Part shown: positions 1-60,817 of the stretch, piece after piece | Numbering within the stretch: the stretch's first letter is position 1 | Layout: each line of letters opens with the position of its first letter | IMG/VR virus record: IMGVR_UViG_3300034101_000324 | Span: 1-62,649 of that record | Source of the DNA: a virus | Lineage: Duplodnaviria; Caudoviricetes | DNA: 62,649 nt | Direction: 5' to 3' (one strand) | Position numbers and translations under genes: made by a program | The notes under the pieces: generated by a model | Database searches by the model: none | What the model was told of the DNA's origin: nothing | What the model saw: only the letters and a program-made list of their open reading frames with translations

Positions 1-127
1 GCATCAACACCGTGAATGGCTCGCGCCATGCAAAGGGTATCGAAGTAATAGGCAGGGGTGATGTCAAAGATGAACGAAAGAATTCCACCGTCGAACTGTG
101 CGTTATGACAGAGCAGGGCTGACGTAC
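1..127. repeat. 127-bp direct terminal overlap, identical to 62523-62649; circular assembly overlap
   Basis: The first and last 127 nt are identical and fall inside the polymerase gene. 127 is a common assembler k-mer. Confidence 0.95.
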
Positions 128-5988: not shown

Positions 5989-6536
5989 GCGTTCTTTCTC
6001 CGCGCAATCTCACGCTTGAGGTAGAACTCTGCCTTCTCAAGATCCTGCACAGGATCTACCCCTAGCTTCTTACCCGCTCGGGAGATGTACTTAACAACAT
6101 TAAATAGATAGGCGTTCTCGGTCAGTCCCTTGGCCTCGGCGTAGTCGAGGAAGTCGATGCCGCCTTTTGTGTAATGCGGGGGGTGATTGACTAGATCGGT
6201 TTCGGTTGCTTGCATTCTGTGCTTTGGTCTGCCTGTCGGGGGATTAGTAGCAGGATCGATGGCAGCGAGTAATTTCATGGCTGCGTGTTCGTACTGGGGT
6301 TGTACGAGCAACTTCGTCGGCTTGCTCTCAACCGCATCCATCGCCTTTCGCATCTCAAACAAATCATTAACCAGACGCGAGCGGGGACTTTTAAATTGTG
6401 CTTTGTTCTTTGACTTCTTTTTGGCTGCGTGTCTTACAAAATATACATAGGCCGCAGAGGTTTTTAGTTTCTTAGCAATCTCCCCTGCTGTTAATCCCTT
6501 ATTAGTTAACTCCAATACTTGCTTTGATTTCGACAT
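5985..6536 (-). CDS. HTH + DUF3310 (T7 gp1.7-like nucleotide kinase family) protein
   Basis: N-terminal GLTAGEIAKKLKTSAAYVY; C-terminal VNHPPHYT...NVVKYISRAGKK...DLEKAEFYL. Confidence 0.8.
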   Translation of the reverse strand: MSKSKQVLELTNKGLTAGEIAKKLKTSAAYVYFVRHAAKKKSKNKAQFKSPRSRLVNDLFEMRKAMDAVESKPTKLLVQPQYEHAAMKLLAAIDPATNPPTGRPKHRMQATETDLVNHPPHYTKGGIDFLDYAEAKGLTENAYLFNVVKYISRAGKKLGVDPVQDLEKAEFYLKREIARRKNA

Positions 6537-6813
6537 GACTTAGCTCCTTGCGTAGGTTCTCTACGTTTGTTTCATCTACTACTAATGCGATGCCACCTGC
6601 TTTGCGAATGTCATCGATATGCTTCAACTGAAGCGCGGTAGGCTTATTACCGTTTGCCTTGCACTCTATAGCATAGAACAACCCTCCTATGCAAATAAGA
6701 AAATCGGGAACGCCAGAGTTCCCGAAACCAGTTCCCATTGGCATTGCGTAGTACGCACCCATTTCATTGAGAATCTTTTTTACCTTTGCTTTGACCTTCG
6801 CTTCCGGCGTCAT
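6502..6813 (-). CDS. VRR-NUC nuclease (resolvase-like)
   Basis: PEAKVK...GVPDFL...IECKA...PTALQ. Confidence 0.88.
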   Translation of the reverse strand: MTPEAKVKAKVKKILNEMGAYYAMPMGTGFGNSGVPDFLICIGGLFYAIECKANGNKPTALQLKHIDDIRKAGGIALVVDETNVENLRKELSHVEIKASIGVN

Positions 6814-6955
6814 GACTATTCACCTGTTTCACGTACCAGTTGTAATAGTCATCTTGCCACGGTCGGCCAGTCAACATCTTGTAAAACTCCAACACCTTAT
6901 CCATGTCCTGCTTCGACTTAGCCGTTACCACGTAGTCGAGCGTACTCATGAACAT
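6764..6955 (-). CDS. Hypothetical protein (start revised to ATG 6955)
   Basis: The AGGAG SD is formed by the palindrome at 6968-6984; translates MFMSTLDYVV... Confidence 0.5.
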   Translation of the reverse strand: MFMSTLDYVVTAKSKQDMDKVLEFYKMLTGRPWQDDYYNWYVKQVNSHDAGSEGQSKGKKDSQ

Positions 6956-6967
6956 TCTCTGTTCATC

Positions 6968-6984
6968 TCCTGACAATGTCAGGA
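6968..6984. promoter_or_regulatory. 17-bp palindrome, copy 1 (TCCTGACAATGTCAGGA)
   Basis: Contains the stop of 6979-7428 and the SD of the next gene. Confidence 0.9.
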
Positions 6985-7428
6985 CTGTGGTTGTCCCTTG
7001 ATAGTCAGAAAGACTTCCATTGATAGAGTTATTGCGTATCTGTTCCTCACTCTCCACCCGATCTCTCGCAGTATCTCGGGGCAATAGTTCTTGTACGTCC
7101 ATAGGATTTCCTCGTAGTCCTCTGTCGTGTGGTGCATCCAAGGCTTCATCGTCACAGGGGGTTGCCCATTGCCTAGCGTGTTTGATCGGTGTAACTCGTC
7201 CCAGTCAAAACTGTTAATGAAACCAAGGGCTGTCTTGATCTCATCAGGCAATGTCTCGTCTGTGAAACGCCTCTTCATACCCTGTCCCATATACAACTCA
7301 TACACATCGCCGTTGTGTTCACACAGCACACGTATACGGTTGTCCTTCAAGTTCAACGGCTCCATGACCGCATCACTTCGACAGGATGTAGAGCGGAGTC
7401 CTACCGATTCGGTAGTGCTGTAGGCCAA
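6979..7428 (-). CDS. Hypothetical protein (true start may be ATG 7365)
   Basis: ORF in the early operon; its stop lies within the palindrome. Confidence 0.7.
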   Translation of the reverse strand: MAYSTTESVGLRSTSCRSDAVMEPLNLKDNRIRVLCEHNGDVYELYMGQGMKRRFTDETLPDEIKTALGFINSFDWDELHRSNTLGNGQPPVTMKPWMHHTTEDYEEILWTYKNYCPEILREIGWRVRNRYAITLSMEVFLTIKGQPQS

Positions 7429-8401
7429 TCGCTTCGATGCTCTCCCAGTATCTCGGCTCGCTCACGTCGGGCATATCTGCTTGTGTATTGGTGTGCGCCT
7501 TGAGCATGGTCAGAGCAATGTTCAGTTCAGAGGAAATGTCGTCGGGTATGTCGTTCATAGTCTTGTATCGCTTGAATGGCACGACAGGTACGCCGTAATT
7601 GAATTCAGTCTCTGATGGCATACTGCCTGTCTTGCGATAGGTGTCTATTGCTACTTGAATAGCATGGTAAGAGACCGCGCCAAGTGTCACCCCGCCAAGG
7701 GAGTTCGGGATGAGTAGCCACTTGTCCGTAGTAAAGTACGCAGCGACACGATCCATTATGTCGTTAAACTTCCGTACCTCTCCCATGTGATCAAGGTATA
7801 CACCACGCAGACGTTGAGCCTGCGCTGGCGGGATCTCGTATTTGTCCTCGCTGAATTGCGCCAAGATCAATTCGGTAATAAGTTCCCGATCCACACTTGC
7901 CTCGGGTTTAGCCATCGCTTGCCATCCACCGGCAAAGTTTTCGAGCATCAGGGAAAGCACACTGCGAAATATGTCGCTAGGTGCGGTCTGTGCCCTACGT
8001 AGGTCACTCATCAGCGATGCCTTTGCATCATGCCTAGAATCAGGACGCAAGTTATTAGCCAGATATCGCGGATTGACACTCTCCATACGGTTTGAATAGT
8101 GATATGTAGTAGTGGCGTCCATACCAACTAAGAAATTATCCGCCGACATGAATCTGTATTCATCGCCAACACCATTCTTGACGATGGCGCAAACACTAAA
8201 GCCCCCGTCAGTCATCATGTGAATGAGTTTCTCACCTCCGTTATGAAACGCACCAACCTTGGCCTTTCGCTCAGTAGTTGCATACGCAGCCAGAACAACC
8301 GGCCACATCTCTGACTTGATAACTGCTGTTCGCTCTGCCGGATCAACCGTGTCCAAGAACACATCGTTGACATCGACTTGAATCTTTACTCGCTTAGCCA
8401 T
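7373..8401 (-). CDS. Hypothetical protein
   Basis: 342-aa ORF with AAGGAGG SD. Confidence 0.85.
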   Translation of the reverse strand: MAKRVKIQVDVNDVFLDTVDPAERTAVIKSEMWPVVLAAYATTERKAKVGAFHNGGEKLIHMMTDGGFSVCAIVKNGVGDEYRFMSADNFLVGMDATTTYHYSNRMESVNPRYLANNLRPDSRHDAKASLMSDLRRAQTAPSDIFRSVLSLMLENFAGGWQAMAKPEASVDRELITELILAQFSEDKYEIPPAQAQRLRGVYLDHMGEVRKFNDIMDRVAAYFTTDKWLLIPNSLGGVTLGAVSYHAIQVAIDTYRKTGSMPSETEFNYGVPVVPFKRYKTMNDIPDDISSELNIALTMLKAHTNTQADMPDVSEPRYWESIEAIGLQHYRIGRTPLYILSK

Positions 8402-8429
8402 GACTTATGCCTCCTTAGTTTTATCGACT

Positions 8430-8446
8430 TCCTGACATTGTCAGGA
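8430..8446. promoter_or_regulatory. 17-bp palindrome, copy 2 (TCCTGACATTGTCAGGA)
   Basis: Abuts the stop codon at 8447. Confidence 0.9.
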
Positions 8447-9706
8447 TTATTCTTTGACCATCACCTTGCGACCATGCGGCGGGGTGAACCCACGGCTCTG
8501 CGTTACAAGCCACAGCGTCGGGCAAGCAACGTCCCACTTAACATTCGGCTCCACGTGGCCGTCCGTGAACACGATCACACCGTCTGCATCAATGTGTCGC
8601 TCGTTCATGTACTCGCTCACACAAGAGACGCGAGTGCCGCCACCACCCACAGGCTTGAGCAACGTGGCGATGTTGGCGTAGTTCTCAATCTCAAACCGCT
8701 GCTCTGCGTGAACGCGAGTGTCCCACCACAGCACGATGACCGACTCTGGTGGATACAACTCACACAGGTTGGAGATACGCGCTGCAACGCGGGCGATCTG
8801 CTTATCGTCGATGCTGCCTGACGTGTCGATGGCAAACACCATGCGACCCACCGTCTCGCTGTACGGGGACGGCAGATACAAGTCATCAGCCAAGCGGCGA
8901 CGATTCAGACGCGAGTACGTGTACTCGTCCACGCCACGCATGACGCCAGACCAGAAGTCATCAAGCACATCAGACCATGCGATCTCCGGCTCCATCTGAT
9001 CCTTGATTACGCGAGGGATGTCTACACCAAACTTCCCTGCCAAGAGGCCGCCCTGCTGCAAGCCTTCGTTGATCTTGCGCTCCAGTTCGCGCTGCTGATC
9101 TGGCGTGAGTTTGTTACCACCCTTGCCATCCTTGCCGTCCTGACCCTCGTAGTCGTGCTTGTCGAGCGGCTGACCACGCTGCTGCGTACCCTTGTTACCC
9201 GACTTCTTGGGCAGACCCGGATCGCTCGGCTGATTTTTCGGCTGCTTCTCACGCTCCTGCCAGAGATAGTCAAAGACTTGTCTCACCGACCAGTCATGGA
9301 ACATCGGATCATACAGACCACCGTCCGGCAACTTGGCTAGTGTCTTGTCCTTGAGATTCATGATCACATCGTTGACCACGAAATCCATCGCTACGTTGGC
9401 TAACATCGGATCCTTTGACGCCAAGTCCTTGTGACGTGGGATATGCTTGAGCAACTTGTGCAGATTCTCATGCAGCACAAGGCCACACGTCTCTTCAAGT
9501 GTCAGGCCATTCAAAAACTCCCTGCCGTAGTACGTGTTCAGCCCATCGGTACAGGCCGTAGGTATGTTGTCATCTCCATCGACGATCTTGGTATCGCCTA
9601 GAAGAATGATGCCCGAATACAGGCACGTCTCGGGATGACGCATCAATCGGATGTGCGCCTTCTTCAACTTCAACTCTGCATCCATAACTTGAACTGCTGC
9701 GTTCAT
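8447..9706 (-). CDS. Metallopeptidase (DUF2201-like) + vWA domain protein
   Basis: TACTDG, HENLH (HExxH), MIDAS IDTSGSI, GGGGT, VFTDG. Confidence 0.9.
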   Translation of the reverse strand: MNAAVQVMDAELKLKKAHIRLMRHPETCLYSGIILLGDTKIVDGDDNIPTACTDGLNTYYGREFLNGLTLEETCGLVLHENLHKLLKHIPRHKDLASKDPMLANVAMDFVVNDVIMNLKDKTLAKLPDGGLYDPMFHDWSVRQVFDYLWQEREKQPKNQPSDPGLPKKSGNKGTQQRGQPLDKHDYEGQDGKDGKGGNKLTPDQQRELERKINEGLQQGGLLAGKFGVDIPRVIKDQMEPEIAWSDVLDDFWSGVMRGVDEYTYSRLNRRRLADDLYLPSPYSETVGRMVFAIDTSGSIDDKQIARVAARISNLCELYPPESVIVLWWDTRVHAEQRFEIENYANIATLLKPVGGGGTRVSCVSEYMNERHIDADGVIVFTDGHVEPNVKWDVACPTLWLVTQSRGFTPPHGRKVMVKE

Positions 9707-9882
9707 ATCACTAACTCCTCTTGCTTAACATCCACAGTAATACCCATTTCCTTGATGCGCTTCAGATGCCCAATGTCAAACGTCATCCGTCCCATCAGGT
9801 TGGCAAACTGCTGCGCCAGTAGATTCACGGGATAGAATCGCACCGTCCCGTATAAGTTTTTCTGTTCAACTACCATTTCCAT
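9703..9882 (-). CDS. 59-aa hypothetical protein (not in ORF track)
   Basis: GGAGGTG SD; MEMVVEQKNLYGTVRFYPVN...; coupled to the next gene. Confidence 0.7.
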   Translation of the reverse strand: MEMVVEQKNLYGTVRFYPVNLLAQQFANLMGRMTFDIGHLKRIKEMGITVDVKQEELVI

Positions 9883-9894
9883 GACTCACCTCCG

Positions 9895-10986
9895 TTAGAT
9901 CAACAACTCATAGTTGGACTTCGCCCAGTCCTTGATCTCGTTATTCTTGATAGCCAACTTGCTCACCCGCTTGGACTGCAAGGCCATCGTGAAGAACACG
10001 CTCTGCACCTCTGCGCTGTTAATGCGCTTAACGAACTTCATGAACGCTGCGAGATCGTCCTGCGTATCGATAGTGTCGATTGCATTGAACATCATCATGA
10101 ACAACGCTGCGGGTTTCTCTGGAATCCTGACGTTGTCAGGATCAGCAATAACATTCTTAATCGCTACCAACTCACCCGACAGAGACATGACTGCCGTCAT
10201 CAACTCAGCCGCAGCCGCACCGATAGTACCGGCGAGTGATGCCTGTGTGAGATTGACACCCAACCGCTCACGTTTGGTCACGATGTTGTGACACTTGGCG
10301 AGACTGCGCGGCGAGACGAACGACAACGCCTTGCGATTCGGATTGAAGATGTACGGATTGTCTTCCTGCCCACCGTCCAAGTAACTCGCAAGCATCCGTG
10401 GGTGCATCGCCACACAAGCACGAATCTCGGCAGCGATGTTGTTATCAGACGCCCATGCGTTCCACTCGGTAGCATTCGGCTTACGCAAGTTATAGATGGT
10501 GACGCGATTACCTGCGTGCGCCAACATACTGTCACCCACACCGTCGCTTGCATTGTTACTTGTTGCAAAGATGATTGAGCCAGGATGTGTCTTGTCCAGA
10601 TCCTTGTCACCCACGCAATGCTCAAGCATCAAGCGAGTCCACATTGTCTGGAGCAACTTCGGAGTCTTCATAAACTCGTCGAGCATGATGACCTTCGGCT
10701 TCGGGCTGTCGAGCATGAACAAGTCAGAGACGATCTGTAGTAACTTCGTCCTGTCATTGTCAGGAACACTCATCGCCGTGTCGCCAATGTCTTTAACAGG
10801 ACAGTCCACGTAGATGTAGTCGTACCCATCACCTAGTTCAGCCTTAAGAGCCTTGAGCAATGTCGACTTGCCGCAGCCCGGCTCGCCCTTGATGACAGCG
10901 GTGTTAGTCGTACCCAATTCCAAGATGGCGGTCATCGCCTCTTTCAATGAGATGGGGTTGTTGAATTCGATTGTGTTAGTAGCCAT
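9895..10986 (-). CDS. MoxR/CbbQ-like AAA+ ATPase
   Basis: Walker A GEPGCGKS, Walker B IMLDEF, ATSN sensor, SPRS. Confidence 0.88.
   Translation of the reverse strand: MATNTIEFNNPISLKEAMTAILELGTTNTAVIKGEPGCGKSTLLKALKAELGDGYDYIYVDCPVKDIGDTAMSVPDNDRTKLLQIVSDLFMLDSPKPKVIMLDEFMKTPKLLQTMWTRLMLEHCVGDKDLDKTHPGSIIFATSNNASDGVGDSMLAHAGNRVTIYNLRKPNATEWNAWASDNNIAAEIRACVAMHPRMLASYLDGGQEDNPYIFNPNRKALSFVSPRSLAKCHNIVTKRERLGVNLTQASLAGTIGAAAAELMTAVMSLSGELVAIKNVIADPDNVRIPEKPAALFMMMFNAIDTIDTQDDLAAFMKFVKRINSAEVQSVFFTMALQSKRVSKLAIKNNEIKDWAKSNYELLI
10125..10141. promoter_or_regulatory. 17-bp palindrome, copy 3, intragenic (TCCTGACGTTGTCAGGA)
   Basis: Exact arms; read as PDNVR in the ATPase. Confidence 0.85.
10749..10765. 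promoter_or_regulatory. Palindrome variant, 1 mismatch (TCCTGTCATTGTCAGGA)
   Basis: Intragenic; read as PDNDR. Confidence 0.65.
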
Positions 10987-11013
10987 GACTTTGCTTTACC
11001 TCTGTTGTTGAAA

Positions 11014-11916
11014 TTACAGACCAAACTTCGACAGGATGTCGTCCACGCCTTCCTTCACAACGGTACGCTTGGTATCGCTGTTACGCAGTTGGTCGATGGT
11101 GACTCCGTCCAATACTCGTAGCAGATCACGCCGCGCATCCTCCAAGCGCGTGTCGTTAGTCAGGTTGAACTCGGCAAACGTGTTGCATAACTCCATCGCG
11201 TCAGTCAGCGTCGACTCGTACATCTTGCGCCGCTTGACCTTGATCTCACCGTCCTCCATGACCGTCTCGCTGTCGCAGCAATGTGAGAACGACTGCAATA
11301 CCTTGATCAACTGATCCTGCTGCTTGCTGTGAATCTCGTTGATGATGTCGCGTGTCTGCTGCTCGAAGTTGTTACGCAAGTCATCGGCCAGATCGTTGGC
11401 GATAGTCACTCGGTAGTCGCCCTCTGGGATGTTCATTGTCTGGATGATGACTTTGAATCTGCTCCTGACCTCGTCAGGAGTCGGGTAATCGTCCTTGTTG
11501 AACATATCGCCCTGCACGAACGCCTCGTTGCTGATCGCGCTTGGCATGACGGTAATAAACTTCTCTAGTAACTCTTCAGATCGCGCCTTGCGATCTTGGA
11601 TCTCGCCCATGACTGGAGCGATGCGCGGCGTGGGCAGATAGCCCCACTCGCCGTCCCACGGATAGGTAATACGTTGTACAAAGTTGTACCAAGTCTGCCT
11701 GTCGTTCAGGAGTGCGCGCAATTCGGGTACGTCGGCAAAGAGTTGCTTGGTGTATCTCCCTGCGTTGCGAGCGGCCTTCTTGTTGGCCGTGACCTCATCG
11801 CTGATGTCACGATCCTGCTTCGTCGCAGTCCAGACCTTGACCTTGGCGCGGAGCAAGATACCGCCCGTTGCCAGCGATGTGATGTGTTCGGGTTGCTTTA
11901 ACAAATTAGATTCCAT
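11014..11916 (-). CDS. DUF3150-like protein
   Basis: YLPTPRI...YPTPDEVRSRF pattern; typical position upstream of AAA and vWA genes. Confidence 0.65.
   Translation of the reverse strand: MESNLLKQPEHITSLATGGILLRAKVKVWTATKQDRDISDEVTANKKAARNAGRYTKQLFADVPELRALLNDRQTWYNFVQRITYPWDGEWGYLPTPRIAPVMGEIQDRKARSEELLEKFITVMPSAISNEAFVQGDMFNKDDYPTPDEVRSRFKVIIQTMNIPEGDYRVTIANDLADDLRNNFEQQTRDIINEIHSKQQDQLIKVLQSFSHCCDSETVMEDGEIKVKRRKMYESTLTDAMELCNTFAEFNLTNDTRLEDARRDLLRVLDGVTIDQLRNSDTKRTVVKEGVDDILSKFGL
11463..11479. promoter_or_regulatory. 17-bp palindrome, copy 4, intragenic (TCCTGACCTCGTCAGGA)
   Basis: Exact arms; read as PDEVR. Confidence 0.8.
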
Positions 11917-11938
11917 GACAGTCTCCGTTAGTAAGTTG

Positions 11939-11955
11939 TCCTGACAATGTCAGGA
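11939..11955. promoter_or_regulatory. 17-bp palindrome, copy 5 (TCCTGACAATGTCAGGA)
   Basis: Lies between the promoter at 11979-12007 and the SD of the DUF3150 gene. Confidence 0.9.
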
Positions 11956-11978
11956 GTGAATTCCCACTCTACATACAT

Positions 11979-12007
11979 ATTATAACATAAGTTGCTATTT
12001 AAGTCAA
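11979..12007 (-). promoter_or_regulatory. sigma70 promoter PE3
   Basis: TTGACT-N17-TATAAT with TGn extended -10. Confidence 0.9.
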
Positions 12008-12011
12008 CAGT

Positions 12012-12296
12012 TCAAGCAAACAAAAAGAACAACACCGCACCCGTAAGTGCGGTAACGAACCCATAGGCAAAGCCTAGTTTGAACACCTTCTTACCGAACT
12101 TGACCGCAGCCTCGTCAATCTCGGGCTTGATGCTGTTGGTGAATTCCTCCACCACCTCGTCCATTAACTCACGCTTGATCGCTGCACGCATCGACTGCTC
12201 ACGCAACAGGCGTAACTCTTCCTCGTCACGCTGTTGATCCGCGTGCCACTGGGCTTGATCGTCGGTAAACCATTCTTCGTCTCTTGTTTTAGCCAT
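12012..12296 (-). CDS. Hypothetical protein with C-terminal TM helix
   Basis: AAGGAGGTG SD; hydrophobic C-terminus. Confidence 0.75.
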   Translation of the reverse strand: MAKTRDEEWFTDDQAQWHADQQRDEEELRLLREQSMRAAIKRELMDEVVEEFTNSIKPEIDEAAVKFGKKVFKLGFAYGFVTALTGAVLFFLFA

Positions 12297-12297
12297 G

Positions 12298-12426
12298 TCA
12301 CACCTCCTTAATCGTCCACTTGATTCGCGGGTTCATACGCTTGCGCCCCGTCCAATACGGCACAGCCCACTCGGTATCTGTCTCCACACAAATCAGCCGC
12401 TTGCCCAAATACACTTCCATCCTCAT
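12298..12426 (-). CDS. 42-aa hypothetical protein (not in ORF track)
   Basis: MRMEVYLGKRLICVETDTEWAVPYW...; ATGA overlap with the upstream gene. Confidence 0.6.
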   Translation of the reverse strand: MRMEVYLGKRLICVETDTEWAVPYWTGRKRMNPRIKWTIKEV

Positions 12427-12644
12427 CGGTAAAACCCTCCCTTGTTGTTGATACCTTTCAAGTCCTCAAGGTTAGTCACCTTGATGTAGTTGCTCTTGTG
12501 CATCGGCACGACCGTATGTTTGACCTGACGGGCATACTCCTGCCCGCAAGGTAGGCACGAACCGAATCCCGCCATGACCCTGCGTGGATCAACTGGGGTG
12601 TACATACCTTTGGTCACGCACGCTCGGCAAAAATAGGTACTCAT
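12423..12644 (-). CDS. Small zinc-ribbon protein (start revised to ATG 12644)
   Basis: GGAGG SD; CRAC...CLPC. Confidence 0.75.
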   Translation of the reverse strand: MSTYFCRACVTKGMYTPVDPRRVMAGFGSCLPCGQEYARQVKHTVVPMHKSNYIKVTNLEDLKGINNKGGFYR

Positions 12645-12655
12645 CCAAGCCTCCT

Positions 12656-12672
12656 TCCTGACGCTGTCAGGA
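12656..12672. promoter_or_regulatory. 17-bp palindrome, copy 6 (TCCTGACGCTGTCAGGA)
   Basis: Directly abuts the SD of 12644. Confidence 0.9.
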
Positions 12673-12789
12673 CTATCGTTGATACAACTAAACACCCACG
12701 CGACCTCGGGGTTACCAAGGCCGCTAGGCTGCTCACTCGCTCATCGCGGCTCACAACTTTGTAGGCAGATACTCGGAGCTACACGACAG

Positions 12790-12806
12790 TCCTGACGTTG
12801 TCAGGA
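12790..12806. promoter_or_regulatory. 17-bp palindrome, copy 7 (TCCTGACGTTGTCAGGA)
   Basis: Exact arms, extended by a flanking G/C pair. Confidence 0.9.
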
Positions 12807-13217
12807 CAAGTTATGGTTCACACTCCTACCGCTGCCGGACATACATTGCCTGTCCGTACCGGCTATGGATCGCGGGTCTAGCCTTTCGCCGCTCTGACCG
12901 TACTCTGCACTTCACCTACGGTTTTACACTCCGCACAGGACTATCCGTGTCCTTACCGCTTGGCTTCGCAGTCGCCCATCCGTCACCGCCCCACCTCGCT
13001 CGTAATAAATACGGTCAACATGGGATTGATATGGCTGACAGAATTTACAGGCCGCAAACTACTCAACGACTTGTCACCTAGGCGATCCTATGTGCAGTCT
13101 CGTACTGCACCACGACCCCGATTGATACTCGGAGCACCGCTGTTTGTCAGACAGCGTCACGGCTCTGCCACCGCGCCTTCACCTACTATCGGCTTACGAC
13201 TTGTAGGATCGTTGTTG

Positions 13218-13234
13218 TCCTGACACCGTCAGGA
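13218..13234. promoter_or_regulatory. 17-bp palindrome, copy 8 (TCCTGACACCGTCAGGA)
   Basis: About 40 nt downstream of the PE2 start. Confidence 0.9.
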
Positions 13235-13279
13235 CTCGTGGAACCCGCCTCGTTTGGCGAAATTTCCACTATAGACTAT

Positions 13280-13308
13280 ATTATAACAAATGTAGTCTTT
13301 TAAGTCAA
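13280..13308 (-). promoter_or_regulatory. sigma70 promoter PE2
   Basis: TTGACT-N17-TATAAT with TGn; shares TTGACTTAAA...TGTTATAATAT with PE3. Confidence 0.9.
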
Positions 13309-13368
13309 GTAATAAGCAAATTATTTTGTCTGGGCACGATGGACTGGGGGTGCGTGGTTTATACGTTG

Positions 13369-13385
13369 TCCTGACAATGTCAGGA
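13369..13385. promoter_or_regulatory. 17-bp palindrome, copy 9 (TCCTGACAATGTCAGGA)
   Basis: About 60 nt upstream of the PE2 -35 element. Confidence 0.9.
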
Positions 13386-13414
13386 AATGCGCGGTTTTTC
13401 GGCAGCGTACACGC

Positions 13415-13826
13415 TAAGTGCTTGATTAGGTTAGGGATAATTGGAAAGTGGTAATATGTTGTACGCTTTGTACGCAAAATGAAAGTTGTAATAACGTACA
13501 AGATTTTGGGTTTTGAGGCAGAGGAGTGGTTCTGTAAGTTATTGATTTTATTATTATTATTATTATTTATTTATAAGAAGAAGAGGTAAAAAGAGGAGTT
13601 TGTACGCTTGTACGCTGTTTTTTGAGGGAGGACGGCCGGTAAAAAATTTTCCAAGTTTTTTAAAAAATTTTGCGCTTGCCGAAGAAGACAAACTGGCTCC
13701 TCCGTCCCCTAGGTGCGAACAAGCGTACAAGCGTACAAATCGACACTTTTCCCTTTAAGATCAAAGGCTTGGCTTGTTCCCGTCAACTTAAGTGTGAGTA
13801 CAAGCCAAAAATGTAAGTCATTGATT
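13415..13826. promoter_or_regulatory. Three IHF consensus sites (13415-13427, 13535-13547, 13814-13826)
   Basis: TAAGTGCTTGATT, TAAGTTATTGATT and TAAGTCATTGATT each match the reverse complement of WATCAANNNNTTR. Confidence 0.7.
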
Positions 13827-13856
13827 TTTAAGGAAACGCGAAAAATTTTGTACGCT
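13459..13856. repeat. TTGTACGC iterons with an 18-bp inverted repeat (13599-13616 / 13722-13739) and an AT-rich (TTA)n tract
   Basis: Tandem pairs at 13459/13468 and 13600/13608, inverted pair at 13723/13731, single copy near 13848. Confidence 0.8.
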
Positions 13857-13938
13857 ATTGCAACTTTCAAAGTGCAACTTAGCGCATGGGCTAGGGCTAG
13901 AAAACTGGTATCGCGTCATCTAAGCAAACCGATTCTGA

Positions 13939-13955
13939 TCCTGACACTGTCAGGA
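13939..13955. promoter_or_regulatory. 17-bp palindrome, copy 10 (TCCTGACACTGTCAGGA)
   Basis: Exact arms; non-coding region. Confidence 0.9.
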
Positions 13956-14165
13956 AGCAGGCGAGTCTTGGCGTGGGCTAAGCAAACCGATTCTGATGTC
14001 GTCAAACTTTGGGTCACGCACAAGAAGAGCGGTGTAGACGCATGGCCTGTAACTTGTACATGGGCTAGGGCTAAGGCTTTGGGCTCGGGCTTAGGCTTGG
14101 CCTAGCAAGAACTGGTCTCATATAGAACTGGTATCCGTGGAACTGGCTTCGCGGAGCGCAGACGC

Positions 14166-14200
14166 AAAAAAGCCCCGCCAAGCATGAGCCTGACGGGGCT
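14166..14200 (-). terminator. Intrinsic terminator of the PE1 transcript
   Basis: AGCCCCGUCAGGC-UCAU-GCUUGGCGGGGCU followed by a U run. Confidence 0.85.
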
Positions 14201-14204
14201 GTGG

Positions 14205-14243
14205 TTAGAACGGGAATTCCAACTGTTCGGGTTCAGCGCACAT
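14205..14243 (-). CDS. 12-aa micropeptide MCAEPEQLEFPF
   Basis: GGAGG SD 5 nt before ATG; lies between the first early gene and its terminator. Confidence 0.5.
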   Translation of the reverse strand: MCAEPEQLEFPF

Positions 14244-14296
14244 GGCAACCTCCGTTGAAGTTATAGATGAGGGGCGGCTCGCGCCGCCCCCCGTAG

Positions 14297-14313
14297 TCCT
14301 GACAGTGTCAGGA
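14297..14313. promoter_or_regulatory. 17-bp palindrome, copy 11 (TCCTGACAGTGTCAGGA)
   Basis: Supplies the TGA stop of 14308-15135. Confidence 0.9.
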
Positions 14314-15135
14314 ACCCGCCCGATCAGCCGCCGCGATGATTTCATCGGCCAGAGCAGGATCAAACGCCGCCTCCAACATGATGGAACAAAGTGCCGTCCA
14401 TTGACCCTCAGACACCACCGAATCGTCGCCGTTGTCCTTGGCATATCGCGCGCGCTTCTTGGTTCCCGCCTTGTGCAGACCGTTGAGCAGATCGGCGAAA
14501 TCCTGTTTCGCACCACCCGCACGACCCGACGCATCGGCTTTCCAACCGCGAGACAACGCCTGATCAACATCATTGTTGATCCAGTCGCGCATACCCTGAC
14601 CCTTGCCATCCGGCCGCTCACCAACCGCCGTGCCGCGCATCCAAGCCTTGACACCGTTCGGCTTTTCAGCAACCGACGCGAGAGTCTTGAGATCGACGCC
14701 TAGCGCGAATGCCGCCGTGAAAGTGTGATTCACAGGCAAAGCAGACTCGACCGGTGTCCACTTTTTAGCCAGGCGAGACCACACGCGAACCGGCAGATAC
14801 TTGTCGTCGTCGCCCACCTTGTGCACCTCGACCGAATAGTGCGCGCGAGTCTTGGCCGAATCGGTAGCCATGGTCTTGAGCACCGCGTGCAACGCCTTAC
14901 CGATTTCGGACTCACGATCGAACCGCTCGACCCCGTCGCGCTTGATCACCGGAACACCCGCCGCGAGGCAGAGCGCCGCGAAATCAGACTGAAACGACTC
15001 GGTGTCGACCGACGTAGAAATCTGAACGTCGATAGCCTTGACCGCGACCGCCTCAGCCTTGGCGAGAATATCGGCAGCCATTGACGGGTTGACCGACTTC
15101 GAGACCGCGACAGCAACTTTGTTTGACTTAGCCAT
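14308..15135 (-). CDS. First early gene, 275-aa hypothetical protein (start revised to ATG 15135)
   Basis: GGAG SD; has its own promoter and terminator; GC-rich codons. Confidence 0.8.
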   Translation of the reverse strand: MAKSNKVAVAVSKSVNPSMAADILAKAEAVAVKAIDVQISTSVDTESFQSDFAALCLAAGVPVIKRDGVERFDRESEIGKALHAVLKTMATDSAKTRAHYSVEVHKVGDDDKYLPVRVWSRLAKKWTPVESALPVNHTFTAAFALGVDLKTLASVAEKPNGVKAWMRGTAVGERPDGKGQGMRDWINNDVDQALSRGWKADASGRAGGAKQDFADLLNGLHKAGTKKRARYAKDNGDDSVVSEGQWTALCSIMLEAAFDPALADEIIAAADRAGS

Positions 15136-15164
15136 GATATGTATAACTCCACTAGATGATGTAT

Positions 15165-15181
15165 TCCTGACATTGTCAGGA
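15165..15181. promoter_or_regulatory. 17-bp palindrome, copy 12 (TCCTGACATTGTCAGGA)
   Basis: Lies between PE1 and the SD. Confidence 0.9.
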
Positions 15182-15210
15182 GTCAGCGAGAACACCCCGC
15201 CGACGATTCT

Positions 15211-15239
15211 ATTATACCACTTCTGTTATACTTTGTCCA
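15211..15239 (-). promoter_or_regulatory. sigma70 promoter PE1
   Basis: TGGACA-N17-TATAAT with TGn. Confidence 0.8.
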
Positions 15240-15554
15240 GTCGACGGCAGGCAGACGCAGCGGATTTTTGGGCGCGTAAACTCAAGCCCATTACGTCGTC
15301 TAGGGTTTAGCAAAATCAAACTCAAGCCCACACAATGTGCAAATCGTTGGCGTTGTCACCCCACCGTACCGCCACCCTCCGCGCTGCGTTTAACTTCCCG
15401 TCAGCGAACTAATACACTCGAACTCTCACAAATCCTCACTACATTTCCAAAACTCGGCTAGGCAGACCCCACCCCCTCGTATACAGAACCCCCCCGGTAT
15501 CTCGTTTGGTACCATGCTGTTTTTTTATATATTTATTTTGTACTATCCACACCC

Positions 15555-16124
15555 ATGACTGATACGGCGCTTGTTCCAGAGATCGACGAGAACATCCCGC
15601 TGCCCGCTAACGCGGCTGAAGCCTTGCCTGAATTGTCTGCCGAGGCAGAGATCCAGATGCGGGCCCGCACCATAAAGTTGATCTCAGATTTAACAGGTAT
15701 ACCCCTTGTCCCAACTGAGCAGGACAAGGACGAAGCCGAGAAGTTGGCTCGTCAGATGATCGAAGATCCTAAGAAGCGCATTGAGTTTAGTAAGTATCCG
15801 AACGAAACAATGGCATGGCTAGCCGGTATGGTGCAGCAAAGCAACTGTTCGCTCGTAGATGACCTTTCTGAATACAAAAATTACGTGATTAATAGGCTTG
15901 TTTCTGAGATTGAAACGACAGCCGATGCCAAAATTCGTGTGCAAGCCCTCACAAAGCTTGGCGAAGTAGACGGTGTGGACGCATTTAAGAAGCGTACAGA
16001 GACCACACACATTATTAAGCCCATCGAAGAGGTCGAAAAAGAGCTTTTGTCGGTACTAGAAGGCATTGAATACAAGGTTTTGGAAGATAAAACCGAAATA
16101 CCCGTGCAGAATCAATGCAATTAA
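15555..16124 (+). CDS. terS: Putative terminase small subunit
   Basis: Helical 189-aa protein directly upstream of, and overlapping, terL. Confidence 0.6.
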   Translation: MTDTALVPEIDENIPLPANAAEALPELSAEAEIQMRARTIKLISDLTGIPLVPTEQDKDEAEKLARQMIEDPKKRIEFSKYPNETMAWLAGMVQQSNCSLVDDLSEYKNYVINRLVSEIETTADAKIRVQALTKLGEVDGVDAFKKRTETTHIIKPIEEVEKELLSVLEGIEYKVLEDKTEIPVQNQCN

Positions 16125-60163: not shown

Positions 60164-60817
60164 TCATTTCTCCCGGTAGAACCTGCAAGTATTTACTGGA
60201 CACCATCCGCACAAACCTGTCGGCATCGGAGGCCATGAGTCATTCTCATACGCCAATCTTAACCGCTCAAGACTCGGTGTGAACTCTGCCCACAATCTGC
60301 CGATGTCGCTACGTTCGTACTCTTCTGGCACGAACACATTCTTGGTGATGAACAACAACCCTGCTTTGATACTGACAATGTCAGGAAAGTGGGCATAAGC
60401 CATCAACGCCATCAACTTCAACTGCTTCGGGTCAGCGTACTTATTACTACCTGTCTTGTAATCCACAATGTATGCGGACTTGCCGTCAACAATCAAGAGG
60501 TCGACAACACCGCGCACCCATCTTTTTTCATCCCCAAAATCGCACGGTATTTTGTCATGGGACAGCGCCATCTTATGTTCGGGATAGCGTGTACCTTGTA
60601 TTTCCATCAGCGCATCTAGAGGGCCCTGAAATCTCTGGTAGTTCTTAGCTAATGGAGTTCCATCCCTTACGTAGTCTTCCAAAGCCTTGTGGACTTCGGT
60701 TCCGTAGAGCATCTGCTCGGTGGCTTTCTTCTCGTAGTCCTGCTTTACCTTTAGGTGGTAATACTGCTTCGGACAGTTCGTGAATTCCTTGAGACTACTA
60801 TATGACCAAGTAAACAC
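60164..60817 (-). CDS. PD-(D/E)XK exonuclease (RecB/Cas4-like)
   Basis: SYSSL...CPKQY, VDLL, VDYKTG, QL, CGWCP...C. Confidence 0.9.
   Translation of the reverse strand: MFTWSYSSLKEFTNCPKQYYHLKVKQDYEKKATEQMLYGTEVHKALEDYVRDGTPLAKNYQRFQGPLDALMEIQGTRYPEHKMALSHDKIPCDFGDEKRWVRGVVDLLIVDGKSAYIVDYKTGSNKYADPKQLKLMALMAYAHFPDIVSIKAGLLFITKNVFVPEEYERSDIGRLWAEFTPSLERLRLAYENDSWPPMPTGLCGWCPVNTCRFYREK
60370..60386. promoter_or_regulatory. Palindrome variant, 1 mismatch (TACTGACAATGTCAGGA)
   Basis: Intragenic; the only close copy I found outside 6.9-15.2 kb. Confidence 0.5.

What the first reader, a model, noticed from the sequence alone, without database searches (positions are those of the whole stretch)
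6968..15181. Dispersed 17-bp palindrome (TCCTGAC-RNY-GTCAGGA) blanketing the early region: a candidate new DNA-site/protein system
Seen: 12 copies with perfect 7-bp arms (6968, 8430, 10125, 11463, 11939, 12656, 12790, 13218, 13369, 13939, 14297, 15165) and 2 one-mismatch copies (10749, 60370). I saw no exact copy in the 38-kb structural arm. Chance expectation for 14 fixed bases in 62.5 kb is about 2e-4 copies. Placement is ordered: one copy lies about 17-40 nt downstream of each of the three sigma70 starts, several sit exactly at gene junctions, and several are carried inside ORFs. The arms are invariant rather than covarying, and the spacer ends (R..Y in 11 of 12) often cannot pair in the transcript. 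That argues for a dimeric dsDNA-binding protein rather than an RNA hairpin. Inference: this is either a roadblock network that shuts off early transcription (analogous to mycobacteriophage L5 stoperators, but palindromic and in a phage with no visible integrase), or loading/protection sites on the first-injected DNA. Candidate binders are the XRE at 56365, the HTH-DUF3310 at 5985, the HTH-like 683-1093, the bracketed gene 14308-15135, and the wHTH segments of the 2202-aa virion protein.
Basis: partly seen in the sequence, partly recalled or inferred. Interest (0 to 1): 0.92.

Follow-up and report, generated by a model that had tools for sequence, protein, structure and literature searches.

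The report
Private palindrome marking phage early genes
A lake-water phage carries twelve identical copies of a 17-letter DNA palindrome only in its early genes, and its relatives each carry their own version, which points to an unidentified regulator that reads these sites.

Summary
There are 12 exact TCCTGAC-N3-GTCAGGA copies and 2 one-mismatch copies (0 expected). All exact copies lie in 8.2 kb of the leftward early arm of a complete 62.6-kb podovirus genome.

It is a family trait. 62 of 82 related metagenomic loci, against 0 of 82 shuffled, carry a dispersed palindrome in the same early module. At least 17 different lineage-specific sequences occur.

In the window's lineage the arms are invariant in 77 of 88 distinct copies. 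They are held at synonymous sites inside genes, with no G·U tolerance. Spacer use is symmetric under reverse complement, and predicted RNA hairpin stability is not conserved (-10.2 to -0.8 kcal/mol). Sites sit mostly between genes. Across lineages a site starts 23-75 nt (median about 45) after the -10 of 32 of 45 strong sigma70-like early promoters.

Best reading (about 0.45): operator sites for a two-fold symmetric dsDNA-binding regulator that gates host-RNAP early transcription.

The closest known feature is the 17-bp 7-3-7 palindrome of Cluster O mycobacteriophages, whose function is also unknown. I class this as a new variant of a known kind.

The parts
15165..15181 (.). Palindrome copy 1. 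It starts 29 nt after the -10 of promoter P1 and ends 29 nt before the ATG of gene 14308-15135.
14297..14313 (.). Palindrome copy. Its TGA (14310-14308) is the stop codon of gene 14308-15135. A G+C-rich hairpin and a terminator follow it.
13939..13955 (.). Palindrome copy in non-coding DNA upstream of the AT-rich repeat region. An 18-nt direct repeat (CAGAATCGGTTTGCTTAG) flanks it.
13369..13385 (.). Palindrome copy between the AT-rich repeat region and promoter P2.
13218..13234 (.). Palindrome copy that starts 45 nt after the -10 of promoter P2.
12790..12806 (.). Palindrome copy in the ORF-free stretch downstream of P2.
12656..12672 (.). Palindrome copy 11 nt upstream of the ATG (12644) of the Zn-ribbon gene, followed directly by AGGAGG.
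11939..11955 (.). Palindrome copy that starts 23 nt after the -10 of promoter P3 and ends 22 nt before the ATG of the DUF3150-like gene. It is conserved in 9 of 9 aligned relatives while the promoter-to-site spacer varies by indels.
11463..11479 (.). Intragenic copy in the DUF3150-like gene (codons about 146-151). The arms are invariant at synonymous sites in 9 of 9 relatives. The spacer is GAG, GAA or ATT.
10749..10765 (.). One-mismatch copy inside the ATPase gene. The same mismatch recurs at the corresponding place in relatives.
10125..10141 (.). Intragenic copy in the ATPase gene (codons about 282-287).
8430..8446 (.). Copy that abuts the TAA of the VWA/DUF2201 gene, 28 nt before the ATG of gene 7373-8401. 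In the near-identical relative L016 an extra 57-codon gene sits directly after this copy.
6968..6984 (.). Last copy. Its TGA (6981-6979) is the stop of gene 6979-7428.
60370..60386 (.). One-mismatch copy inside the PD-(D/E)XK nuclease gene, outside the cluster.
15211..15239 (-). Promoter P1: sigma70-type, TGGACA-17-TATAAT with TG extension, 11 of 12.
13280..13308 (-). Promoter P2: TTGACT-17-TATAAT, 11 of 12.
11979..12007 (-). Promoter P3: TTGACT-17-TATAAT, 11 of 12. Its -10 is conserved in relatives.
14171..14200 (-). Terminator-like hairpin (13 pairs plus a T run) after the first transcription unit.
12033..12054 (-). Terminator-like hairpin before P3.
14308..15135 (-). First early gene (275 aa), bracketed by two copies. 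No family or fold match. It is fast-evolving and found only in the window's lineage and its sister.
12423..12644 (-). Zn-ribbon protein (73 aa, CxxC...CxxC) with a conserved PMHKSNY...INNKGG tail. Present in 22 of 26 representative loci. At least 500 homologous clusters, none with a defined function.
11014..11916 (-). DUF3150-like protein (300 aa), universal in the palindrome-bearing relatives.
9895..10986 (-). AAA+ ATPase (363 aa).
8447..9706 (-). DUF2201 metallopeptidase-like / VWA protein (419 aa), used as the anchor to fetch relatives.

Best explanation
The 17-bp palindromes are binding sites on double-stranded DNA for a two-fold symmetric (dimeric) sequence-specific protein. That protein is encoded by the phage but not yet identified.

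The phage appears to have no RNA polymerase of its own, so its early arm is transcribed by host sigma70 polymerase from three strong promoters. One site lies shortly after each promoter. Further sites lie at most early gene junctions, or inside genes where no junction is free. Together they form an array that lets one protein gate transcription of the whole 8-kb early block. The most likely mode is blocking elongation once the protein accumulates (early shut-off), as stoperators do in Cluster A mycobacteriophages.

Site and reader co-evolve, so each lineage has its own palindrome.

Shown: sequence-level selection, symmetry, confinement to the early arm, the coupling to promoters, and lineage-specific turnover.
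For: (1) Sequence-level selection.
- There are 77 perfect against 11 imperfect distinct-context copies in the window plus 12 related loci. These relatives share 71-84% aa identity in the VWA anchor protein, apart from L016, a 99%-identical partial match.
- The site upstream of the DUF3150 gene is perfect in 9 of 9 relatives, while the sequence between promoter and site is unalignable with indels.
- The intragenic copy keeps all arm bases at synonymous positions in 9 of 9, although the spacer codon changes.

(2) Not a fold.
- Mismatched pairs in imperfect copies are 2 G·T, 2 A·C and 8 other in the window's lineage.
- Predicted RNA hairpin energies of the 19 lineage motifs range from -10.2 to -0.8 kcal/mol, and 6 are -2.6 or weaker.
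- Palindromy often runs through the centre, where a loop could not pair: A at spacer position 1 in 10 of 12 and T at position 3 in 8 of 12 here. L029, L051 and L082 have zero-spacer palindromes.

(3) Two-fold symmetry. Spacer sets are closed under reverse complement on the sense strand: CCC 3 / GGG 2, ACCT 4 / AGGT 2, centre A or T in one lineage, C 9 / G 6 in Pag-Yong1.

(4) Tie to early transcription.
- In 6 of 6 whole genomes the sites form one early-arm cluster, spanning 8-10 kb in five. G010 has 9 of 12 copies within 6.3 kb and three outliers.
- Of 45 strong sense-strand sigma70-like promoters inside the site clusters of 21 loci, 32 have a site starting 23-75 nt after the -10, and 24 of those 32 fall at 38-53 nt. 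Only 5 have a site within 80 nt upstream. On the antisense strand, 1 of 10 has a site downstream.

(5) A trans-acting reader is implied. All copies change together between clades, and motif classes are monophyletic on the VWA tree.

(6) Relatives that carry a similar ATPase/VWA pair but encode their own RNA polymerase (CRP-7, an N4-like Klebsiella phage) lack such palindromes in the 16-21 kb examined around that gene pair.

(7) The motif is not a host repeat. A scan of 185,579 species genomes gave only scattered hits at about the chance level and no cluster.
Against: - No reader was found.
- Pfam scans of 38 window ORFs found no repressor or ParB-type domain beyond weak HTH hits.
- The sites never overlap the promoters.
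- Placement is what an mRNA element would show: just after stop codons and 11-29 nt before start codons. In one lineage the Shine-Dalgarno sequence sits in the palindrome's spacer, 2-4 nt before the ATG.
- In the window the RNA hairpin would be stable, -9.3 to -12.8 kcal/mol.
- One lineage (L056) has A at the centre in 11 of 12 copies on the sense strand, although its relatives have T.
- The promoter counts come from related loci and are not independent.
- There is no experimental evidence of any kind.
Confidence: 0.45

Rival explanations
1. The element acts in the early mRNAs. The transcribed palindrome forms a hairpin or sequence tag that is bound or cut by a phage protein. That would control translation, processing or decay of early messages, or load an antiterminator as lambda boxB does.
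For: - All copies lie in one co-directional, sigma70-driven transcribed block.
- A site follows each promoter at a narrow distance across lineages.
- Most copies sit between a stop codon and the next ribosome-binding site. Two supply the stop codon.
- In the L066 lineage the spacer is AGGA and the ATG follows 2-4 nt after the palindrome in 7 of 10 listed copies.
- The hairpin is stable in this genome, -9.3 to -12.8 kcal/mol.
- Terminator-like hairpins exist in the early arm, so antitermination would have a use.
- A conserved small Zn-ribbon early protein of unknown function is present in 22 of 26 lineages.
Against: - There is no wobble tolerance.
- Loops are unconstrained and symmetric under reverse complement, which a loop-reading RNA protein would not produce.
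- Hairpins would be marginal (-0.8 to -2.6 kcal/mol) in 6 of 19 lineage motifs.
- Bases that could not pair in a triloop are still complementary more often than not.
- Intragenic copies have no evident role in translation.
- Two copies (13939, 13369) lie between a strong terminator-like hairpin and the next promoter.
Confidence: 0.22
2. The palindromes are recombination or cassette boundary sequences. They would be short conserved linkers, possibly cut by the phage's own small nucleases, at which early-gene modules are exchanged, inserted or lost, as proposed for PeSL elements of T4-like phages.
For: - Sites sit at module boundaries where divergence jumps. Window against L014: VWA 84% and the next gene 32% aa identity.
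- In L016, about 100% identical around it, an extra 57-codon gene lies directly after the copy corresponding to 8430.
- L017 has copies 191 nt apart twice in a row.
- Ends of homology blocks between close relatives fall within 25 nt of a site in 31 of 150 cases, against 12.5 expected.
- The phage family keeps a VRR-NUC-like nuclease and a small conserved 93-aa protein whose Pag-Yong1 homologue is annotated as a Cas9/HNH-family endonuclease.
Against: - 119 of 150 homology-block ends are not at sites, and the excess is confounded by both features being intergenic.
- Only 17 bp are shared, with no conserved flanks. That is short for homologous exchange.
- Copies inside essential-looking genes are held by purifying selection.
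- Mosaicism outside the early arm occurs without sites.
- This reading does not explain the fixed distance from promoters.
Confidence: 0.1
3. The sites are duplex DNA sites with a non-transcriptional role. Options are loading or nucleation sites for a protein that coats, condenses, protects or positions the first-expressed DNA (ParB/KorB-like or an injected protein), or a role in replication or ejection.
For: - The symmetry and invariance evidence is the same as for the best explanation.
- The array spacing is 134-1695 bp.
- Two copies bracket a conserved AT-rich repeat region that could be an origin.
- A 2202-aa virion protein has a DarB-like C-terminal part.
Against: - No ParB-family or similar protein was found in 38 scanned ORFs.
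- The N-terminal part of the 2202-aa protein is not conserved even among same-motif relatives.
- The genome ends are unknown.
- The tight coupling to promoters is not predicted by this reading.
Confidence: 0.15
4. The sites are hairpin promoters for a virion-carried RNA polymerase, as in phage N4 (stem of 5-7 bp, loop of 3 nt).
For: - The geometry matches, a 7-bp stem with a 3-nt loop.
- The location is in the early region.
- A giant virion protein is present.
- The ATPase/VWA pair is shared with N4-like phages.
Against: - No RNA polymerase signal was found in the 2202-aa protein by PHROG, Pfam or PDB sequence search.
- Strong sigma70 promoters already drive the region.
- The sites show no strand asymmetry, no conserved loop base and no conserved flanks.
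- Other lineages have 0-, 1-, 2-, 4- and 6-nt spacers and weak stems.
- An N4-like phage examined has no such array in the 21 kb around its ATPase/VWA genes.
Confidence: 0.03

Closest known systems
17-bp dyad repeats of Cluster O mycobacteriophages (5'-TGTTCGGNNNCCGAACA; Cresawn et al. 2015, PMC4351075; passages read)
   Same: - The architecture is identical: 7-bp inverted arms and a 3-bp spacer, 17 bp in all.
- The arms are invariant within a genome and the spacer is variable.
- There is no meaningful orientation relative to transcription.
- Copies are a mix of intergenic and intragenic.
- The phage has strong host-type promoters, no integrase, and no known reader. The authors predict a dimeric DNA-binding protein.
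   Different: - The sequence is unrelated, and so are the phage type (siphovirus of an actinobacterium) and the host.
- Cluster O has more than 30 copies spread through the genome. Here 12 copies are confined to 8.2 kb.
- Here a site follows nearly every early promoter at a set distance.
- Here the family shows at least 17 different palindromes. The passages I read of the Cluster O paper show one sequence on all five genome maps.
Stoperators of Cluster A mycobacteriophages (L5 gp71 type). Seen as search listing and abstracts of PMC9283540 and PMC6550527, and as the comparison made in PMC4351075
   Same: Many dispersed copies of one short site sit within transcribed regions and short intergenic gaps. 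They are read by one repressor that stops elongating host polymerase. Site and repressor specificities diversify between related phages.
   Different: - Stoperators are asymmetric 13-bp sites, oriented with transcription and bound by a monomer.
- Those phages are temperate, and the sites serve prophage silencing.
- Here the sites are palindromic and confined to the early arm. No integrase or immunity repressor was found in the ORFs scanned.
Start-associated sequences (SAS/ESAS) of Cluster K mycobacteriophages (Pope et al. 2011, PMC3203893; passages read)
   Same: Repeats are tied to gene starts in the non-structural half. Inverted-repeat consensus sequences differ between subclusters. Function is unknown.
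   Different: SAS is a 13-bp asymmetric sequence that contains the ribosome-binding site. ESAS repeats are imperfect and have variable spacers. Here the arms are perfect, the spacing is fixed, and only one lineage places the ribosome-binding site in the spacer.
PeSL promoter/stem-loop cassettes of T4-like phages (PMC2839356 as search listing; PMC4122927 abstract read)
   Same: An early promoter combines with a nearby dyad element, repeated through the variable early regions. Indels of small genes are associated with it.
   Different: PeSLs are longer composite sequences that act through homologous recombination. Here only 14-20 bp are shared, flanks are not conserved, and most sites have no promoter.
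Global operator arrays of IncP plasmids (KorB/KorA operators of RK2; PMC11790492 and PMC2665229 seen as search listing and abstract starts). PMC2665229's abstract start calls the KorA operator symmetric; the number and sequence of the operators are recalled.
   Same: One mobile element carries about a dozen identical short palindromic operators. A dimeric regulator uses them to silence many transcription units, some from a distance.
   Different: That system is a plasmid, not a phage. Its reader is a ParB-family clamp with partners, and no such protein was found here.
Conserved inverted repeats (CIRs) of Streptomyces phage phiC31 bound by its repressor (recalled; my search for it returned only an unrelated paper)
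   Same: As I recall it, a 17-bp inverted repeat is present at many loci, several in the early region, and is bound by the phage repressor.
   Different: That phage is temperate with a known repressor.

Membership tests
Cluster O-type dispersed 17-bp dyad repeat (descriptive class) | 7-bp inverted arms separated by 3 bp, with arms invariant within the genome | tested here: met
   12 of 12 exact copies; 77 of 88 distinct copies in the lineage are perfect
Cluster O-type dispersed 17-bp dyad repeat (descriptive class) | More than 30 copies located throughout the genome | tested here: not met
   12 copies, all within 6968-15181 of 62,649 bp
Cluster O-type dispersed 17-bp dyad repeat (descriptive class) | No site orientation relative to transcription | tested here: met
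   Spacer positions are symmetric: A at position 1 in 10 of 12, T at position 3 in 8 of 12, centre A5 T3 G3 C1
Cluster O-type dispersed 17-bp dyad repeat (descriptive class) | Shared sequence or common descent with TGTTCGGNNNCCGAACA | tested here: not met
   The arms are different, and the phage is unrelated by portal and terminase neighbours
Stoperator network (Cluster A mycobacteriophages) | Asymmetric site oriented with the direction of transcription | tested here: not met
   The site is a perfect palindrome
Stoperator network (Cluster A mycobacteriophages) | Immunity repressor and integration functions (temperate life style) | tested here: inconclusive
   No integrase or repressor family among 38 ORFs scanned with Pfam. 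Not all ORFs were scanned.
Stoperator network (Cluster A mycobacteriophages) | The bound protein stops elongating RNA polymerase | not testable with these tools
   Needs binding and transcription assays
Lambda-type nut/boxB RNA sites | Site in the transcript shortly after early promoters | tested here: met
   3 of 3 promoters here; 32 of 45 across lineages
Lambda-type nut/boxB RNA sites | Hairpin with a conserved, strand-specific loop that the protein reads, and a stem free to covary | tested here: not met
   The loop is variable and symmetric, and the stem is invariant
N4-type hairpin promoters | Stem of 5-7 bp with a 3-nt loop | tested here: met
   7-bp stem and 3-nt spacer. This does not hold in other lineages.
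N4-type hairpin promoters | Virion-packaged RNA polymerase | tested here: inconclusive
   No match for the 2202-aa protein to any polymerase family or solved chain by sequence. Its fold was not predicted.
N4-type hairpin promoters | Strand-specific conserved bases in loop and flanks (feature recalled from the N4 literature) | tested here: not met
   No conserved flank and no strand bias
PeSL cassettes | Extended near-identical composite sequence (promoter plus stem-loop) able to recombine | tested here: not met
   Only the 17 bp are shared. Flank consensus is empty.
REP elements / RAYT | Many copies in the host chromosome and an associated Y1 transposase | tested here: not met
Of the 80 rows shown, 78 are single scattered hits and 2 hold two sites each. 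About 139 hits are expected by chance (my estimate), and there is no cluster. No transposase was found in the scanned ORFs.
ParB/KorB-type operator array | ParB-family reader encoded by the element | tested here: inconclusive
   None found in 38 ORFs scanned

The most novel reading that the evidence does not exclude
These host-polymerase-dependent lytic podoviruses use a fast-diversifying private operator code. Each lineage places its own 14-20-bp palindrome about 45 nt after every early promoter and at most early gene junctions. The code would time early shut-off and, because it is lineage-specific, would also let a resident phage silence or ignore the early genes of a co-infecting relative. 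That would be an immunity-like specificity system in phages that do not lysogenise.
Probability: 0.25. Interest if true: 0.8.

Novelty: new variant of a known kind. Interest (0 to 1): 0.6.

Why it matters
Dispersed dyad repeats of this exact shape have been known in Cluster O mycobacteriophages since 2015, and nobody knows what reads them or why.

This phage family offers what that case lacked: many lineages that keep the same genome layout but have swapped the palindrome at least 17 times. It also gives matched and mismatched site/protein pairs for direct tests.

One culturable relative, Planktothrix phage Pag-Yong1, carries 17-25 copies of its own version, so experiments are possible.

If the sites gate host-polymerase transcription, they would explain how abundant freshwater and marine podoviruses without their own polymerase switch off early genes. 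They would also supply a set of orthogonal operator/regulator pairs.

Tried and rejected
**Candidate readers rejected**
- XRE 56365: the recognition helix is nearly constant across six genomes with different motifs.
- HTH-DUF3310 5985: the helix varies within the same-motif lineage, and L014 is close to L047 despite different motifs.
- 683-1093: a homologue in 1 of 12 related loci.
- Gene 14308-15135: AlphaFold2 mean pLDDT 73.8, no Foldseek match at E<=0.001, best VIA Z 6.8 to helical bundles.
- wHTH stretch of the 2202-aa protein: poorly conserved.
- Zn-ribbon protein: model pLDDT 79.4 with no fold match. Its conserved tail does not track the motif. It is neither supported nor excluded.
- DUF3150-like protein: no solved relative by profile. 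7 of 15 members match PF11348. Its function is unknown.
- Small antisense 'families' found in the ORF clustering are spurious frames opposite real genes.

**Other negative searches**
- Host-site idea: the genome-contig scan gave only scattered hits.
- Half-sites alone are not clustered: 16 outside the palindromes against about 8 expected, spread over the genome.
- Rfam: no family at gathering score in the window, and only two sub-threshold hits in 11900-15600. No tRNA.
- Megablast of 6000-16000 against phage records: no match.

**Literature**
- A search for the motif letters returned only macrophage papers.
- 'Pag-Yong1' returned no paper.
- My phiC31 search found nothing useful.
- I therefore cannot say from these searches that the feature is unreported for this phage group. 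Supplementary files were not consulted.

**RNA evidence**
- 23 runs hold part of the stretch, but the RNA-labelled ones hold 5-14% of the words and are kept as contigs.
- Laid on 6900-15300, they gave fragmentary contigs of relatives with no information on starts, ends or strand.
- Two contigs of one run end at 15168 inside a site. I give this no weight.

Full report
**What is in the sequence**

It occurs twice more with one mismatch (10749, 60370). Shuffles give 0.00 exact matches and 0.19 matches with up to two mismatches.

The window is a whole IMG/VR virus record of 62,649 bp. Its 'direct terminal repeat' is an exact 127-bp overlap of the two ends, which is what a circular assembly gives. 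The physical ends are therefore unknown.

Genes from 15195 down to 1, and on from 62649 down to 53448, lie on the minus strand. The arm 15555-53273 on the plus strand holds terminase, portal and other virion genes. All 12 exact copies lie in the first 8.2 kb of the minus-strand arm. The chance of that under uniform placement is about 2e-9.

**Anatomy of the early arm**

Three sigma70-type promoters with 11 of 12 consensus matches face leftwards, at 15239-15211, 13308-13280 and 12007-11979. Terminator-like hairpins lie at 14200-14171 and 12054-12033. A palindrome starts 29, 45 and 23 nt after the three -10 elements.

The other copies are placed as follows:
- Two overlap a stop codon: the TGA inside the motif ends genes 14308-15135 and 6979-7428.
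- One abuts the TAA of the VWA gene.
- One precedes the Zn-ribbon gene's start codon by 11 nt.
- Copies 13939, 13369 and 12790 lie in ORF-free DNA.
- Two lie inside genes, the DUF3150-like gene and the ATPase gene.

About 78% of the span is coding. Having only 2 fully intragenic copies out of 12 is therefore unlikely by chance (P=1.3e-5).

The genes of the block are:
- a 275-aa protein with no family match;
- a 73-aa Zn-ribbon protein;
- a DUF3150-like protein, an AAA+ ATPase and a DUF2201/VWA protein;
- two further unknown proteins.

Further along the arm come a VRR-NUC-like nuclease, a DUF3310 protein, a methyltransferase, DNA polymerase A, a PD-(D/E)XK nuclease, an SNF2 helicase, an XRE-like protein and a primase.

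I found no RNA polymerase. Of the 2202-aa virion protein, only residues 1658-2178 match anything, namely families of giant 'DarB-like' proteins. It has no sequence match in the Protein Data Bank.

**What kind of phage**

The portal is 41-44% identical to those of Pelagibacter phages HTVC027P and HTVC023P, Planktothrix phage Pag-Yong1, phage DSL-LC04 and Roseobacter phages CRP-901/902. Public runs that hold the stretch are mostly lake-water metagenomes.

**It is a family trait**

I used the VWA protein as an anchor to fetch relatives. First I fetched 13 close loci. Twelve share 71-84% aa identity; L015 is at 52% and L016 is a 99%-identical partial match. Then I fetched 80 loci down to 34% identity.

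The close relatives carry the very same arms. Ten loci have 7-13 copies each, and L008 and L016 have 2 each. The 5.8-kb L015 has none. In the larger records all copies again lie in one block of 6.6-8.8 kb.

Further out, most lineages have a different dispersed palindrome in the same place. Examples:
- TCTGACA-N-TGTCAGA
- CCTGACA-N3-TGTCAGG
- TACTGTC-N-GACAGTA
- TAATGTC-N-GACATTA
- TTCCACCCATGGGTGGAA
- TTAACA-N2-TGTTAA
- ATAAACA-N2-TGTTTAT
- GTTATCA-N2-TGATAAC
- GCCTAACAAATTTGTTAGGC

Of 82 loci, 62 hold a family of three or more copies with arms of at least 6 bp. None of 82 shuffled versions does.

In all six whole genomes I assembled from fetched pieces, the copies form a single early-arm cluster. 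It spans 8-10 kb in five. In the sixth (G010), 9 of 12 copies lie within 6.3 kb and three lie further along.

The cultured Planktothrix phage Pag-Yong1 has 17-25 copies of GGTTCAG-N-CTGAACC. Nearly all sit in short gaps between genes, about 15-25 nt before the start codon.

Five phages examined have none, although for two of them only part of the genome was searched:
- HTVC027P, 023Pt_psg01 and DSL-LC04 (whole genomes). The first two lack a VWA homologue. DSL-LC04 lacks homologues of the window's DUF3150-like, ATPase and VWA proteins at E<=1e-4.
- CRP-7 and an N4-like Klebsiella phage. Both have an ATPase/VWA pair but encode their own polymerases. I searched only 16 kb and 21 kb around that pair.

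On a tree of the VWA protein every motif class is monophyletic and sister clades differ. So all copies in a genome change together, which implies something in trans that reads them.

**Sequence, not fold**

In the window's lineage 77 distinct-context copies are perfect and 11 have one or two mismatches. The mismatched pairs are 2 G·T, 2 A·C and 8 other, so there is no sign that wobble pairs are tolerated.

The copy upstream of the DUF3150-like gene is perfect in 9 of 9 aligned relatives. The stretch between the conserved -10 and the site is unalignable, with indels of tens of bases.

The copy inside that gene keeps every arm base at synonymous positions in 9 of 9. Its spacer codon is GAG, GAA or ATT, which changes the amino acid in one relative.

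Predicted RNA hairpins are stable here, -9.3 to -12.8 kcal/mol for the 12 exact copies. Across the 19 lineage motifs they range from -10.2 to -0.8 kcal/mol, and 6 are -2.6 or weaker. What is conserved across the family is a palindrome, not a stable stem.

**DNA duplex or RNA**

Three observations favour a two-fold symmetric reader on duplex DNA.
- The symmetry often runs through the centre, where a hairpin loop could not pair. Here the spacer starts with A in 10 of 12 and ends with T in 8 of 12. Three lineages have palindromes with no spacer at all.
- Spacer usage on the sense strand is closed under reverse complement. Examples are CCC 3 and GGG 2; ACCT 4 and AGGT 2; centre A or T in the TACTGTC lineage taken as a whole; C 9 and G 6 in Pag-Yong1. 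A protein that reads an RNA loop would not treat CCC and GGG alike. A dimer on DNA must.
- All seven stem pairs are invariant while the loop is free, which I recall as the reverse of how known RNA-hairpin readers behave.

Against this:
- The placement next to stop and start codons is what an mRNA element would show.
- In the L066 lineage the spacer is the ribosome-binding site (AGGA), and the ATG follows 2-4 nt after the palindrome.
- One genome (L056) has A at the centre in 11 of 12 copies.

I put the duplex reading at roughly 0.6 in total and the RNA reading at about 0.2.

**Link to early promoters**

I scanned 21 representative loci, covering about 14 motif classes, for strong sigma70-like promoters (at least 10 of 12 matches).
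- Inside the site clusters there are 45 on the sense strand. Of these, 32 have a palindrome starting 23-75 nt after the -10, and 24 of those 32 fall between 38 and 53 nt.
- Only 5 have one within 80 nt upstream of the -35.
- On the antisense strand, 1 of 10 has one downstream.
- Outside the clusters, none of 17 does.

The loci are related, so these are not independent events. Still, the rule holds across lineages whose palindromes have nothing in common.

About two thirds of all sites have no promoter next to them. The picture is one site just inside each early transcription unit plus further sites every 134-1695 bp. This resembles the stoperator layout. It is the main reason I favour control of transcription over the recombination and DNA-coating alternatives.

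- The XRE protein has almost the same recognition helix (S-R/K-M/T-T-V-Y-x-W-F-R/K-G) in genomes with TCCTGAC, TACTGTC and TTAACA motifs.
- The HTH at the front of the DUF3310 protein differs greatly among relatives that share the invariant motif. It is nearly the same in L014 and L047, whose motifs differ.
- 683-1093 has a homologue in one of 12 related loci.
- The first gene is 33-40% identical in 6 of 7 same-motif relatives (79% in L017). Its model (pLDDT 73.8) matches nothing beyond generic helical bundles.
- The wHTH stretch of the virion protein is 26-44% identical in same-motif relatives and missing in the sister lineage.

What remains in the neighbourhood:
- The Zn-ribbon protein. It is present in 22 of 26 representatives and has at least 500 homologous clusters, none with a defined function. 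Its model has no fold match.
- The DUF3150-like protein. It is one of only four non-structural proteins of the window with a homologue in every palindrome-bearing genome compared, including Pag-Yong1 (the ATPase's tblastn match to Pag-Yong1 was below threshold). None of the four has a homologue in the five portal relatives compared, four of which lack palindromes.

Neither is shown to bind anything.

The motif is not a host repeat. A scan of one genome per species gave scattered hits at about the number I calculate for chance (about 139), and no cluster.

**The recombination alternative**

Sites lie at boundaries where divergence between relatives jumps. In a near-identical relative an extra 57-codon gene sits directly after the copy corresponding to 8430. 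Ends of homology blocks fall within 25 nt of a site in 31 of 150 cases, against 12.5 expected.

However, both features are intergenic, and 119 of 150 ends are elsewhere. Only 17 bp are shared. The intragenic copies and the promoter spacing are left unexplained. I keep this reading at about 0.1, possibly as a side effect of conserved sequences rather than their purpose.

**Comparison with what is known**

The closest described feature is the 17-bp repeat of Cluster O mycobacteriophages. It has 7-bp inverted arms and a 3-bp spacer, with arms invariant in 34 copies and no orientation. About a third of the copies lie in genes. The function is unknown, and the authors predict a dimeric DNA-binding protein (PMC4351075, passages read).

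The present case shares that architecture. It differs in sequence, phage type, confinement to the early arm, the promoter rule, and the many lineage-specific versions.

Other comparisons:
- Stoperators work in the way I propose, but they are asymmetric, oriented and serve lysogeny (abstracts seen; PMC4351075).
- SAS/ESAS repeats of Cluster K phages are start-associated and subcluster-specific, but asymmetric or imperfect (PMC3203893).
- PeSLs are longer recombining cassettes (PMC4122927 abstract).
- KorB/KorA operator arrays on RK2 are the nearest plasmid analogue (listing; operator details recalled).
- The phiC31 conserved inverted repeats are recalled only.

**Verdict**

This is a new variant of a known but unexplained kind of feature. 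Its value lies in the natural series of swapped specificities and the strict relation to early promoters, which make the open question testable.

Noticed in passing
window 13350-13870: AT-rich non-coding region with about ten copies of GCGTACAA / TTGTACGC and an (ATA)n run, bracketed by palindromes 13939 and 13369. It is about 70% identical over 274-578 nt in 9 of the 14 related loci compared. It could be a replication origin or a second array of binding sites.
   Followed up: partly
window 12700-13273: About 570 nt downstream of promoter P2 without a credible ORF, bounded by palindromes. It is G+C-rich and looks structured. It has no Rfam match and is conserved only in L017 (76-82%) and partly in L005. 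It may be a non-coding RNA.
   Followed up: partly
window 13901-14000: An 18-nt direct repeat (CAGAATCGGTTTGCTTAG) flanks palindrome 13939 together with 22 nt on one side, like a local duplication or insertion scar.
   Followed up: no
window 1-127 and 62523-62649: The two ends are an exact 127-bp repeat. This is the size of a common largest assembly k-mer, so the 'direct terminal repeat' label probably reflects a circular assembly and not real ends.
   Followed up: yes
window 12423-12644: Small Zn-ribbon protein with an invariant H-K-S-N ... D-L-x-G-I-N-N-K-G-G tail. It has at least 500 homologous clusters in metagenomes and no function. JGI labels some of them 'ribosomal protein L37AE/L43A'. 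In L066 and L083, which share a motif, the N-terminal ribbon is nearly the same but the tail is of two different types.
   Followed up: partly
window 8447-11916: The gene trio DUF3150-like / AAA+ ATPase / DUF2201-VWA is universal in this family. The ATPase and VWA members also occur in N4-like phages and Roseobacter phage CRP-7. Its function in phages is unknown.
   Followed up: partly
L017 6286-6684: Palindrome copies 191 nt apart twice in succession (6286, 6477, 6668). The first two have the same spacer, which suggests a tandem duplication of a unit that contains a site.
   Followed up: no
L016 576-765: An extra 57-codon gene with its own AGGAGG directly after the palindrome, absent from the otherwise about 100% identical window sequence at 8402-8429.
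   Followed up: yes
Roseobacter phage CRP-902 (L235) 12541-14308: Four copies of TGACA-N2-TGTCA within 1.8 kb in a phage that lacks the VWA gene. The arms resemble the core of the window's motif.
   Followed up: no
window 46665-53273: 2202-aa virion protein. Only the last 520 residues are conserved (DarB-like giant-protein families). The first 1000 or so residues have no match in the five other whole genomes compared. A 250-residue stretch (401-650) is 26-44% identical in same-motif relatives and has no match in the sister lineage G006.
   Followed up: partly
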